From the UHGV virus genome UHGV-0111899: a DNA stretch of 23,450 bases. One strand, given 5' to 3'. Made by a program: the position numbers and the translations under genes. The notes below the pieces were generated by a model. It was given only the letters and a program-made list of their open reading frames with translations, was not told where the DNA came from and did not search any database. Every line of letters starts with the position of its first letter. The first letter of the stretch is position 1. This DNA comes from a virus. This document shows, piece after piece, positions 6,959 to 7,471 of the stretch.

Positions 6959-7471
6959 TTAAACGGTATGATATTTCATTCTGGCTGCCTCAAAAGCCGC
7001 AGCGGCAAGTTCGGCAGTGTCATGGTATCCAAGGTTAATACACTTTCCAGACGCATTAATTCTTGCTCTCCATTTCCCGTACTTAGCATCCCAAGACACG
7101 CCACGGTATCCAGATTTATTATTCTTCTGAATTTTCCTGTTTTGCATATTTTCGGAATGAGTGACAAGACGAAGATTTGATATCCGGTTATCTGTTCTTA
7201 CCCTGTTGATGTGATCAATAAAACCATCTGGCATGGTGCCATAAACAATCAACCATGCCAGTCTGTGAGCAGGGTATGCTTTACCATTAATCATAATCAT
7301 TAAATACCCATCAGAATTTATTGATGAGCATTTCTTGAAAGCAAAACGAGAGTTCCATGTCAAAGTGGTCCTCTCTCTCCCCTGCCTCCACCTCCAGTGA
7401 AAGTCGCCTGATGATGGATTGTAATCAACAACAGAAAGCACCATTTCTGGCGTTAATTTTATTTCTTTCAT
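6959..7471 (-). CDS. HNH endonuclease with C-terminal AP2-like DNA-binding domain (homing-endonuclease-like)
   Basis: 170-aa ORF; HNH motif region HRLAWLIVYG...HINRVRTDNRISNLRLVTHSENMQN followed by an AP2-like SGYRGVSWDAKYGKWRARI...LGYHDTAELAAAAFEAARMKYH segment; AAGG SD 9 nt upstream of the ATG. Confidence 0.8.
   Translation of the reverse strand: MKEIKLTPEMVLSVVDYNPSSGDFHWRWRQGRERTTLTWNSRFAFKKCSSINSDGYLMIMINGKAYPAHRLAWLIVYGTMPDGFIDHINRVRTDNRISNLRLVTHSENMQNRKIQKNNKSGYRGVSWDAKYGKWRARINASGKCINLGYHDTAELAAAAFEAARMKYHTV

What the first reader, a model, noticed from the sequence alone, without database searches (positions are those of the whole stretch)
6959..7471. HNH-AP2 homing-endonuclease-like gene as the first gene of the late transcript
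Between pR'/tR' and the lysis genes sits a free-standing HNH endonuclease with an AP2-type DNA-binding domain, the domain combination typical of mobile homing endonucleases. Lambda has no gene here. Its placement downstream of tR' means it would be expressed only under Q antitermination. It may be a selfish insertion or could participate in DNA cleavage during packaging, as described for some HNH proteins near terminase genes.
Basis: partly seen in the sequence, partly recalled or inferred. Interest (0 to 1): 0.5.

Follow-up and report, generated by a model that had tools for sequence, protein, structure and literature searches.

The report
Homing-type HNH gene with structured leader
The gene is a real but already-annotated selfish-type HNH-AP2 nuclease sitting as an optional cassette just after the phage's late promoter, and its most interesting part is an undescribed folded RNA leader that hides its ribosome-binding site and is shared with other accessory genes of lambda-like phages.

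Summary
Window 6959-7471 (minus strand) encodes a 170-aa protein with HNH_3 and AP2 domains, an intact I-HmuI-type catalytic motif and a confident fold. It is 100% identical to phage HK629 gp62, already annotated "HNH endonuclease".

It is the first ORF after the Q21-type Q gene, pR' and a terminator. A second terminator (the phage 21/Sf6-type tR'), two tRNA genes and the lysis genes follow.

It is optional: 39 of 5426 complete E. coli genomes carry it, against about 680 with the same site empty. Boundaries are clean and decayed copies exist. All relatives with at least 53% identity (five clades; E. coli and Serratia records, one next to a Q like that of a Hafnia phage) occupy this same Q-to-lysis site.

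A free-standing homing-endonuclease cassette, expressed late, is the best reading. A packaging role is not supported. Cleavage and target site are untested.

It has no Rfam match. It also precedes KilA-N, Rha, ANT, TerB and other HNH genes, including in HK97 and HK022.

The parts
7666..8184 (-). Q antiterminator gene, phage 21/Sf6 type
   Evidence: Pfam Phage_antitermQ E=1.8e-25. HK629 annotates its near-identical Q as similar to Sf6 gene 59, and the Q-to-lysis region is about 97.6% identical in DNA to Sf6.
7659..7688 (-). late promoter pR' (TTGACA, 18 nt, CATAAT); the -35 lies inside the end of Q
   Evidence: Promoter scan gives 11 of 12 matches. The region aligns with the annotated Sf6 and HK75 pR'. 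The Q21 binding element lies within -40 to -1 of pR'21 (bioRxiv 10.1101/651190).
7646..7651 (-). -10-like TATGCT, candidate sigma-dependent pause element; same distance from the -10 as TAAGCT in Sf6/phage 21
   Evidence: Read directly from the sequence. The surrounding CACATATGCTGCTGCTTTTGCATTCAGC is conserved in the Q-proximal leaders of the Hafnia, Serratia and E. coli loci. Function is inferred.
7592..7618 (-). first intrinsic terminator (tR' of the 'B' leader type): AAGCCCACC-TCCTG-TGGGCTT plus a T run
   Evidence: Terminator scan. Annotated as a terminator in HK629. A homologous hairpin follows Q in Hafnia phage yong1, which has no HNH gene.
7469..7598 (-). structured RNA leader (about 130 nt, ends with the ATG). 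Elements: P1 hairpin; long interrupted helix that pairs CUUAG... with the Shine-Dalgarno region ...CUAAGG; 7-nt bulge ACGCGAA complementary to the P1 loop UUCGCGU; CAAGAGU/GCUCUUG pairing
   Evidence: Covariance-model hits of 117-118 bits, E about 1e-25. RNAalifold consensus. Pair counts. No Rfam family matches.
6959..7471 (-). HNH_3 + AP2 endonuclease gene, 170 aa, identical to HK629 gp62
6909..6953 (-). second terminator with the preceding TAAGCT; homologous to the phage 21/Sf6/HK75 tR' and its pause element
   Evidence: Alignment with Sf6 and HK75. Sf6 annotates this sequence as tR' and the qut region. It follows the HNH gene in all 35 complete IMG/VR copies whose downstream sequence is held and, slightly diverged, in the P0010 and P0011 clades.
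6830..6904 (-). tRNA-Asn (GTT)
   Evidence: ARAGORN; Rfam tRNA 55.3 bits
6749..6824 (-). tRNA-Thr (TGT)
   Evidence: ARAGORN; Rfam tRNA 61.5 bits
6183..6506 (-). holin S, first lysis gene
   Evidence: Pfam Phage_holin_3_1 E=2.4e-30

Best explanation
A free-standing homing-endonuclease cassette sits in the leader of the late operon of a lambdoid phage that has a phage 21-type Q.

The cassette has three parts:
- a 130-nt structured RNA leader;
- an I-HmuI-like HNH (HNN) nuclease fused to an AP2 DNA-binding domain;
- an intrinsic terminator.

Shown:
- the domains, catalytic motif and fold;
- the position directly after a terminator, with no promoter of its own;
- the presence/absence polymorphism and the decayed copies;
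- the constant site of the lineage;
- the conserved, covarying RNA fold that pairs the Shine-Dalgarno sequence.

Inferred:
1. Transcription reaches the gene only when Q-modified RNA polymerase reads through the first terminator, that is, late, when many phage genomes are present.
2. Translation is held down by the leader, in which the ribosome-binding site is buried in a helix of about -40 kcal/mol. It needs some release, such as RNase III cleavage, a co-transcriptional window or a factor.
3. The enzyme nicks or cuts cassette-free alleles of the Q21-type late regulatory region in co-infecting or co-induced relatives. Recombinational repair from the cassette-bearing genome then copies the cassette in, together with flanking sequence (intronless homing, as for T4 Seg and Mob enzymes).
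For: Protein:
- HNH_3 and AP2 both score above Pfam's cut-offs.
- D86-H87, N99, N108 and N111 are conserved and align with the I-HmuI active-site stretch DH...NLR...N.
- The model has pLDDT 91.7. Best structural matches are I-HmuI and plant AP2 domains.
- PHROG 99 'HNH endonuclease' E=2.8e-73; PADLOC 'homing endonuclease' models also match.

Optional gene with clean boundaries:
- A 705-nt block replaces 7 nt of Sf6 and HK75.
- In the second leader type, the empty site is GTGGGCTTTTT|GCATTTAGCGTC (Hafnia phage yong1). The filled site is ...CTTTTTT|GCATTCGCG...HNH...GGGGCTTTTT|GCATTTAGCGTC.
- 39 E. coli genomes are filled. 716 match the empty-site query, a figure that probably includes the filled ones.

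Decay:
- a 23-codon remnant in the PhiR12 phages;
- a frameshifted copy, L063;
- truncated proteins P0005-P0009 and P0015-P0024.

Site-specific lineage:
- Five clades of 53-100% identity all lie between a Q gene (Phage_antitermQ by Pfam in four clades, by sequence similarity to the window's Q in the fifth) and the holin.
- More distant homologues lie elsewhere and lack the leader.

Late expression:
- There is no promoter-like site between terminator and ATG.
- The pR' region that loads Q21 is conserved.

Leader:
- 96.1% of cells are paired, and 27 of 47 pairs show changes on both sides, against 5-12 in slid controls.
- The Shine-Dalgarno sequence is inside the helix in the minimum-energy fold of nine divergent copies.

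Precedents:
- Sequestration of the ribosome-binding site is a known control of phage homing endonucleases: I-TevI, SegB, MobE (PMC2988022).
- HNN-AP2 endonucleases are a recognised phage family (PMC2248197; PMC10448857).
Against: - No cleavage activity, target site or biased inheritance has been shown for this protein or for any close relative.
- All copies in E. coli are at least 98.6% identical. A single recent spread by ordinary recombination of a linked module would give the same picture.
- The left boundary cannot be placed, because Q and pR' are shared by filled and empty alleles.
- In the second leader type, the sequence to the right of the insertion point is restored intact in filled alleles. 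Self-immunity by target disruption is therefore not evident.
- The same position across 53-100% identity could also mean a function useful to the phage.
- The same leader precedes non-nuclease genes, so the leader does not in itself argue for homing.
Confidence: 0.68

Rival explanations
1. A domesticated nuclease that benefits the phage. It would cut the DNA of competing lambdoid phages, satellites or the host late in infection (interference competition, or marker exclusion as a selected trait), rather than merely propagating itself.
For: The same site is kept across five clades of 53-100% identity in E. coli and Serratia records. The reading frame is intact in 35 of 40 IMG/VR copies, with three more cut by contig ends. 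The gene is coupled to the late programme and carries an elaborate leader. Nuclease genes at the boundaries of exchanged modules are reported for other phages (PMC10448857).
Against: Only about 5% of sites are occupied, and decayed copies exist. No model of a known defence system matches, only generic 'homing endonuclease' models. This reading overlaps mechanistically with homing and cannot be separated from it by sequence.
Confidence: 0.17
2. A packaging cofactor, like the HNH proteins next to terminase genes (HK97 gp74 type), which stimulate terminase cleavage of concatemers.
For: It is a late gene of a tailed phage with an HNH motif.
Against: It is separated from the small terminase gene (3766..4317) by two tRNA genes and the whole lysis cassette, about 2.6 kb. 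Carriers have different packaging modules: lambda-type in HK629, Terminase_2 with Phage_portal_3 in this window, Terminase_3, and Sf6_terminase. It is absent from about 95% of otherwise identical loci. It belongs to the I-HmuI-like HNH_3 subfamily with an AP2 domain. From general knowledge, the packaging type is a small PF01844 protein without a DNA-binding domain.
Confidence: 0.03
3. A DNA-binding regulator. The AP2 domain would bind a phage or host site, and the HNH part would be inactive or secondary, by analogy with HEG-derived DNA-binding proteins that became repressors.
For: AP2 domains are sequence-specific binders (fold match to AtERF1 bound to DNA). The same leader precedes KilA-N, Rha and ANT regulators.
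Against: All catalytic residues are invariant or nearly so across 38 homologues, including this protein. That is not expected for an inactive domain. The distribution is sporadic.
Confidence: 0.07
4. An ordinary mosaic module with no mobility of its own. The block would be one of several alternative Q-to-lysis segments shuffled by homologous recombination among lambdoid phages, like the tRNA or stx segments at the same place.
For: The Q-to-S junction is a known hot spot for accessory DNA. Downstream neighbours vary (tRNA genes or at least three other sequences). At least two Q alleles occur upstream.
Against: This does not explain why an endonuclease lineage keeps to this site for so long. The clean cassette boundaries next to T runs and the domain architecture point to nuclease-driven spread.
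Confidence: 0.05

Closest known systems
I-HmuI (Bacillus phage SPO1 intron-encoded HNH nicking endonuclease, PDB 1U3E)
   Same: Best structural match of the N-terminal 107 residues (Foldseek probability 1.00, rmsd 3.3 A). It has the same DH...N-L-R...N 'HNN' active-site layout.
   Different: I-HmuI is intron-encoded and, from general knowledge, uses a different C-terminal DNA-binding part. This protein is free-standing and carries an AP2 domain. Sequence similarity is marginal (phmmer E=0.2).
HNN-AP2 free-standing endonucleases of phages (Xanthomonas phages Xp10, Xop411 and OP1; the 'IPA-HNH' genes of Vibrio phage ICP1; Felix O1-like phages)
   Same: Same two-domain architecture and the same conserved boxes (HRLAWL, WP, DH, DNR, NLR, EN). 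Identity to Xop411 and Xp10 proteins is 44-45% (PMC2248197; PMC10448857).
   Different: Those genes are scattered over many sites in lytic phage genomes with no conserved flanks (PMC2248197). This lineage keeps to one site of temperate lambdoid phages, is bracketed by terminators and has a conserved structured leader. The more distant relatives lack that leader.
T4-type free-standing homing endonucleases (Seg, Mob) and intronless homing
   Same: Intergenic, optional genes. They are inherited by cleavage of the endonuclease-free genome and repair with co-conversion. Expression is limited by RNA structures that sequester the ribosome-binding site (PMC2988022).
   Different: In T4 the block is relieved by a late promoter inside the hairpin. 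Here no internal promoter is seen, and the RNA is a much larger, pseudoknotted fold shared with non-nuclease genes. No activity data exist here.
HK97 gp74-type HNH packaging proteins
   Same: Late phage genes with an HNH motif.
   Different: Different HNH subfamily, no AP2 domain, and adjacent to the terminase. None of these defining features is met here (see the membership test).
Accessory DNA ('morons', tRNA genes, stx genes) between Q/pR'/tR' and the lysis genes of lambdoid phages
   Same: Same hot spot and the same dependence on Q read-through. tRNA-Asn and tRNA-Thr sit there in this window, in Sf6 and, by Sf6's annotation, in phage 21.
   Different: Classical morons carry their own promoter. 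This cassette has none and instead has a structured leader.

Membership tests
HNH_3 / I-HmuI-like His-Me finger nuclease | Profile match above the curated threshold | tested here: met
   PF13392, 66.1 bits against a cut-off of 24.8; covers profile positions 1-46 of 46
HNH_3 / I-HmuI-like His-Me finger nuclease | Catalytic Asp-His, structural Asn (NLR) and metal-binding Asn all present | tested here: met
   D86, H87, N99 and N111 are invariant and N108 is at least 90% conserved in 38 homologues. The stretch aligns with I-HmuI DH...NLR...N.
HNH_3 / I-HmuI-like His-Me finger nuclease | beta-beta-alpha-metal fold | tested here: met
   AF2 model pLDDT 91.7. Best PDB match is 1u3e, probability 1.00.
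HNH_3 / I-HmuI-like His-Me finger nuclease | Metal-dependent DNA nicking or cleavage | not testable with these tools
   Needs purified protein
AP2 DNA-binding domain | Profile match above threshold, and a three-stranded sheet packed on a helix | tested here: met
   PF00847, 35.1 bits against a cut-off of 33.3, so only just above. Strands 125-128, 133-140 and 143-150 plus helix 153-167. rmsd 1.5-1.7 A to 1gcc and 7et5. WRI1 AP2 matches at E=2e-6.
Free-standing homing endonuclease gene | Sporadic presence among otherwise collinear genomes | tested here: met
   39 filled against about 680 empty Q21-type sites in 5426 E. coli genomes. Absent from Sf6, HK75 and yong1.
Free-standing homing endonuclease gene | Discrete intergenic insertion with definable boundaries | tested here: met
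   705 nt in place of 7 nt. In the second leader type, the cassette lies between two CTTTTT|GCATT junctions.
Free-standing homing endonuclease gene | Degenerate copies (cycle of gain and loss) | tested here: met
   PhiR12 remnant, frameshifted L063, truncated clusters
Free-standing homing endonuclease gene | Site-specific cleavage of the endonuclease-free allele, and inheritance above 50% in crosses | not testable with these tools
   No experimental data found for this protein
HK97 gp74-type packaging HNH | Gene adjacent to the terminase and portal genes | tested here: not met
   The small terminase gene is at 3766..4317. Lysis genes and tRNA genes lie between it and the HNH gene.
HK97 gp74-type packaging HNH | Co-inheritance with one packaging module | tested here: not met
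   Found with at least four terminase types and absent from most loci
Q-dependent late gene of a phage 21-type late operon | Co-oriented and downstream of pR' and a terminator, with no intervening promoter | tested here: met
Q-dependent late gene of a phage 21-type late operon | Q21 loading signals intact: the binding element in -40 to -1, and a -10-like pause element at the phage 21 position | tested here: inconclusive
   The -35 to -10 region matches Sf6 apart from one base just upstream of the -35. TATGCT stands where Sf6 has TAAGCT. The requirement is taken from bioRxiv 10.1101/651190. Pausing and read-through were not measured.
Any Rfam family (for the 130-nt leader) | Covariance-model match | tested here: not met
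   No hit on the leader at E<=5 in the window, or at E<=1 in HK75, yong1 and Kp4856-1
Leader that sequesters the ribosome-binding site (as in T4 I-TevI, segB, mobE) | Shine-Dalgarno sequence paired in a conserved helix supported by compensatory changes | tested here: met
   Helices at columns 44-49/138-143 and 52-63/123-134 are 97-99% paired; 11 of 15 pairs changed on both sides. The minimum-energy folds of nine copies bury the Shine-Dalgarno sequence.
Leader that sequesters the ribosome-binding site (as in T4 I-TevI, segB, mobE) | Measured effect on translation | not testable with these tools
   Needs reporter fusions and structure probing

The most novel reading that the evidence does not exclude
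The 130 nt in front of the HNH gene would be one member of an undescribed class of structured cis-acting RNA in lambdoid phages, including HK97, HK022 and HK75.

Its features:
- a hairpin whose loop pairs with a 7-nt bulge of a long helix (a loop-loop pseudoknot with compensatory changes in six sequence variants);
- a second long-range pairing between the 5' flank and the apical loop;
- a helix that buries the Shine-Dalgarno sequence.

It always follows an intrinsic terminator. It precedes accessory or selfish genes at module junctions of the late operon: HNH-AP2, HNH-zinc-finger, KilA-N, KilA-N-P63C, ANT, Rha and TerB.

If true, it would be a dedicated translational gate or switch for such genes, with an unknown trigger: RNase III, a phage or host factor, or a ligand.
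Probability: 0.5. Interest if true: 0.65.

Novelty: new member of a known kind. Interest (0 to 1): 0.38.

Why it matters
The nuclease gene by itself matters little. An identical protein is already annotated in phage HK629 and in RefSeq E. coli genomes, and HNH-AP2 homing endonucleases are a recognised phage family.

Three points add something.

1. This is a lineage of homing-type endonucleases tied to a single site, the leader of the Q21-type late operon. That makes target-site mapping and homing crosses between well-known coliphages (HK629 against HK75, Sf6 or phage 21 hybrids) straightforward.

2. The hairpin that serves as tR' in phage 21, Sf6 and HK75 is homologous to the terminator at the 3' end of the cassette in three diverged clades. 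Endonuclease cassettes may therefore have taken part in remodelling a textbook regulatory region.

3. The structured leader is the most valuable lead. It is a conserved, pseudoknotted fold that sequesters the Shine-Dalgarno sequence. It is shared by unrelated accessory genes in model phages, has no Rfam entry, and is partly swallowed by annotated coding sequences. It would show how lambdoid phages keep potentially toxic hitch-hiking genes quiet inside an operon that is transcribed at very high levels.

Tried and rejected
- **Packaging role.** Rejected on position, subfamily and lack of co-inheritance with any terminase type.
- **Defence system.** PADLOC gives only generic 'homing endonuclease' models.
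- **Own promoter in the 125-nt spacer.** None was found by the scan, and in this clade the leader starts directly at the T run. The HK629 record's 'putative pR'' just upstream of the gene does not look like a -10 and disagrees with the Sf6 and HK75 annotation. I place pR' at 7659-7688.
- **ORF 7468..7650 (60 aa).** It runs through the terminator and the leader. It is the same reading that produces the 199-aa 'extended' proteins P0004 and P0010. Judged spurious.
- **Rfam hit 'Pseudomonas sRNA P9'** (18 bits, E=0.41, plus strand). It is only the terminator hairpin.
- **boxA (CGCTCTT) and ops-like (GGCGGTGG) resemblances inside the leader.** Rejected, because those stretches covary as paired strands or are not conserved.
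- **Leader as a DNA palindrome or protein site.** Unlikely, given frequent G-U pairs on the sense strand only.
- **Phage 21-type leader arising from a filled allele by a simple deletion.** I tested deletion between the two TA(T/A)GCTGC repeats or between CATA repeats. The 7 nt TAGAAGG are not reproduced. The direction of the event is left open.
- **Genome-contig scans.** The scan with the single protein found nothing. The scan with the alignment found only distant relatives at 48% identity or less.
- **Literature.** A full-text search for leader sequence strings found nothing relevant. Henthorn and Friedman 1995 on rha regulation could not be read.
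Full report
**1. The observation**

The late genes of this window run on the minus strand. ORF 6959..7471 (minus strand, 170 aa, ATG start) matches Pfam HNH_3 (E=2.1e-18, residues 66-110) and AP2 (E=1.6e-8, residues 120-167). Both scores are above the curated cut-offs.

In an alignment of 38 homologues, D86, H87, N99 and N111 are invariant and N108 is nearly so. These residues align with the DH...NLR...N active-site stretch of I-HmuI.

An AlphaFold2 model built on that alignment has mean pLDDT 91.7. Its best matches among solved structures are I-HmuI for the N-terminal 107 residues and plant AP2/ERF domains for the C-terminal 50 residues, at rmsd 1.5-1.7 A.

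The domain claim is therefore confirmed by profile, motif and fold.

**2. Surroundings**

In the order of transcription, the region reads as follows.

| Feature | Coordinates | Evidence |
|---|---|---|
| NinI-like phosphatase | 8175..8921 | |
| Q antiterminator (Phage_antitermQ) | 7666..8184 | |
| Promoter TTGACA-18-CATAAT, -35 inside the end of Q | 7688..7659 | |
| Terminator | 7618..7598 | |
| HNH-AP2 gene | 7471..6959 | |
| Second hairpin plus T run | about 6950..6909 | |
| tRNA-Asn | 6904..6830 | |
| tRNA-Thr | 6824..6749 | |
| Holin, endolysin, Rz-position ORF | from 6506 downstream | |
| Small terminase, large terminase, portal | 4317 downstream to 672 | |

The Q protein and promoter are of the phage 21/Sf6 type.

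According to the Q21 structural work, a template holding only positions -40 to -1 of pR'21 plus a -10-like pause element at the right distance suffices to load Q21 (bioRxiv 10.1101/651190). In the window, the -35 to -10 stretch matches Sf6 apart from one base just upstream of the -35. TATGCT (7651-7646) stands exactly where Sf6 has TAAGCT.

It is thus reasonable, though inferred, that Q loads normally and carries the polymerase through both terminators. No promoter-like site lies between the first terminator and the ATG.

**3. Is the gene optional?**

The protein is 100% identical to gp62 of phage HK629, annotated "HNH endonuclease".

*Comparison with Sf6 and HK75.* Both phages have the same Q, promoter and second hairpin, which they annotate as tR'. 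In the window, 705 nt (7658-6954) stand in place of their 7 nt TAGAAGG.

*Counts in E. coli.* Among 5426 complete E. coli genomes, 39 hold the whole block, at 98.6-99.6% identity among the 30 hits listed. A query made of the empty Sf6 site is covered by at least 80% in 716 genomes. That number probably includes the 39 filled sites, because the two halves lie just within the tool's joining distance. Occupancy is therefore about 5%.

*Decayed copies.*
- The PhiR12 phages keep the upstream sequence and only 23 codons of the gene.
- One IMG/VR copy has a frameshift in codon 4 (L063).
- Several truncated protein clusters are on record.

**4. A lineage tied to one site**

Relatives at 62% identity (P0017, E. 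coli prophages whose Q resembles that of Hafnia phage yong1), 71% (P0010), 67% (P0011, Serratia) and 53-54% (the L230 type) all show the same order:

1. a Q gene (Phage_antitermQ by Pfam for P0017, P0010 and P0011; for the L230 type, an ORF whose sequence resembles the window's Q);
2. a promoter;
3. the conserved stretch CACATATGCTGCTGCTTTTGCATTCAGC;
4. a terminator;
5. about 130 nt;
6. the HNH-AP2 gene;
7. a terminator;
8. the holin.

Hafnia phage yong1 shows the matching empty site. It reads GTGGGCTTTTT|GCATTTAGCGTCATCC, whereas the filled alleles read ...CTTTTTT|GCATTCGCGTGC...gene...GCGGGGCTTTTT|GCATTTAGCGTCATCC. The mobile unit is therefore leader plus gene plus terminator, placed right after the T run of tR'.

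Homologues at 46% identity or less lie at other places in other phages and lack the leader.

Carriers have different packaging modules:
- lambda-type in HK629;
- Terminase_2 with Phage_portal_3 here;
- Terminase_3;
- Sf6_terminase.

This argues against a packaging function, as do the distance from the terminase and the HNH subfamily.

**5. Mechanism proposed**

*Shown:* an intact I-HmuI-like nuclease with an AP2 DNA-binding domain, in an optional cassette with clean boundaries at a fixed site. It is transcribed only by read-through of a terminator.

*Inferred:* late expression under Q, then nicking or cutting of cassette-free alleles of the same region in co-replicating relatives, then repair from the cassette-bearing genome. 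This is the intronless homing described for T4 Seg and Mob enzymes (PMC2988022).

HNN-AP2 endonucleases are a recognised phage family (PMC2248197; PMC10448857). None close to this one has been tested. The target site cannot be derived from sequence.

I put 0.68 on this reading. The main rival, at 0.17, is that the nuclease has become useful to the phage in competition. Sequence alone cannot separate that rival from homing.

**6. The leader**

*Discovery.* The stretch between the first terminator and the ATG turned out not to be a mere spacer.
- It is similar to the region upstream of a KilA-N gene in Klebsiella phages.
- A 17-mer from it occurs in 93 IMG/VR contigs upstream of different genes.
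- A covariance model built from 24 distinct copies found much more divergent copies in held loci. Among others, these lie in HK75 after Rz and in Hafnia phage yong1 before a Rha gene.
- BLAST finds the HK75 variant in HK97, HK022 and the mEp phages, before the KilA-N-P63C gene.

*Structure.* The consensus has four elements.
1. A hairpin, P1.
2. A long interrupted helix. Its 5' strand (CUUUC... or CUUAG...) pairs with the Shine-Dalgarno region (...GAAAG or ...CUAAG).
3. An apical hairpin.
4. A 7-nt bulge in the long helix.

*Pair counts.* On the 30 distinct sequences, 96.1% of cells are paired. Of 47 pairs, 27 show changes on both sides, against 5-12 when partners are slid by one to three columns.

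*Two further pairings.* These were not part of the model, so the alignment is not biased towards them.
- The P1 loop pairs with the bulge. Six variants keep the complementarity: UUCGCG/CGCGAA, UUCUCG/CGAGAA, UUCACC/GGUGAA, UCGCA/UGCGA, UCACA/UGUGA and CGCUC/GAGCG.
- The stretch just 5' of the long helix pairs with the apical loop: CCAAGAG/CUCUUGG, CGAGAG/CUCUCG, CCCGAG/CUCGGG, CCACAGAG/CUCUGUGG and CACAGAA/UUCUGUG.

*Supporting observations.*
- Frequent G-U pairs on the sense strand point to RNA rather than a DNA site.
- The minimum-energy folds of nine divergent copies (-37 to -52 kcal/mol) all bury the Shine-Dalgarno sequence and leave the bulge free.
- No Rfam family matches.
- No paper in the library contains the conserved strings.

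*Genes served.* The genes behind the leader are HNH_3-AP2, HNH_3 with a zinc-binding His-Me loop, KilA-N, KilA-N-P63C, ANT, pRha and TerB. In every copy whose upstream sequence is held, a terminator-like hairpin with a T run precedes the leader. The window has one copy only.

*Open questions.* I cannot tell whether the 5'-flank/apical-loop pairing coexists with the long helix in a compact fold or alternates with it as a switch. I also cannot tell what releases the ribosome-binding site. RNase III cleavage of the long duplex and a co-transcriptional window are the obvious candidates.

**7. An unexplained detail**

The hairpin that Sf6 and HK75 annotate as tR' (by Sf6's annotation, like the late terminator of phage 21) follows the HNH gene in all 35 complete IMG/VR copies of this clade whose downstream sequence is held. 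Slightly diverged, it also follows the genes of the P0010 and P0011 clades.

Two histories are possible. Either the cassette entered a phage 21-type leader just upstream of its pause element and brought a second leader and terminator with it. Or the phage 21-type arrangement descends from a filled allele that lost the cassette. Simple deletions between short repeats do not reproduce the 7 nt found in Sf6, so the direction stays open.

**8. Verdict**

As a gene it is ordinary and already annotated. New here are the fixed site of the lineage, the cassette anatomy with two terminators, and above all the structured leader shared with other accessory genes.

Noticed in passing
window 7469-7598 (-); also L003:179-319(-) HK75, L005:3921-4056(+) Hafnia phage yong1, L006:2450-2589(+) Klebsiella phage Kp4856-1, L103:5894-6029(+), L100:6533-6675(+): A conserved, covarying RNA leader of about 130-140 nt. 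It has a loop-bulge pseudoknot and a helix that sequesters the Shine-Dalgarno sequence. It always follows a terminator. It precedes HNH-AP2, KilA-N, KilA-N-P63C, ANT, Rha, TerB and another HNH gene, and is present in HK97 and HK022. It has no Rfam match.
   Followed up: yes
window 6909-6953 (-): The hairpin annotated as tR' in Sf6 and HK75 (with its TAAGCT pause-like element) lies downstream of the HNH gene. The gene is therefore bracketed by two terminators. The same hairpin ends the cassette in diverged clades from E. coli and Serratia. Which arrangement is ancestral is unresolved.
   Followed up: partly
L004:2568-2763 (phage PhiR12_1; also PhiR12_2, _4, _5): These phages keep the Q-proximal leader, the structured leader and only the first 23 codons of the HNH gene, then switch to Stx-phage-like late sequence. 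This is a decayed or recombined remnant, not annotated in the records.
   Followed up: partly
P0004 and P0010 (199 aa); HK97 gp73 and Klebsiella ORF L006:2545-3117: Annotated coding sequences start inside the RNA leader, at upstream in-frame start codons. This gives N-terminal extensions such as MSLRYGGGNIAPLLAVISTRTGSIPKV that are probably not translated.
   Followed up: partly
L100:2776-3297, L107:2544-3098, L108:2042-2518; HK629 gp58 (L001:3864-4154): Further genes that match HNH_3, with or without AP2, or are annotated as HNH endonucleases sit in the nin region just upstream of Q in related prophages. These phages carry several endonuclease genes around Q.
   Followed up: no
window 17225-17283 (+): Rfam Lambda_thermo (the cIII thermoregulator element), 88.5 bits against a gathering score of 50. 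The early left operon of this phage is lambda-like.
   Followed up: no
window 3941-4885 (+): A long ORF on the opposite strand lies between the small terminase gene and the lysis genes and overlaps the small terminase gene at its 5' end. It has 314 aa from a TTG, with a likely internal ATG at MKLEDFAAYN..., and no Pfam match. No long minus-strand ORF fills 4318-5346.
   Followed up: no
window 6749-6904 (-): tRNA-Asn (GTT) and tRNA-Thr (TGT) lie in the late leader, as in Sf6 and, by Sf6's annotation, phage 21. HK629 itself has a different sequence here, so the window is not HK629 but a mosaic relative. It also has a different terminase and portal module.
   Followed up: partly
L118, L124, L140 (for example L124:12769-12900): Copies of the leader in which the 3' third (bulge, anti-SD partner and Shine-Dalgarno region) is replaced by unrelated sequence. 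These look like broken leaders at recombination joints.
   Followed up: no
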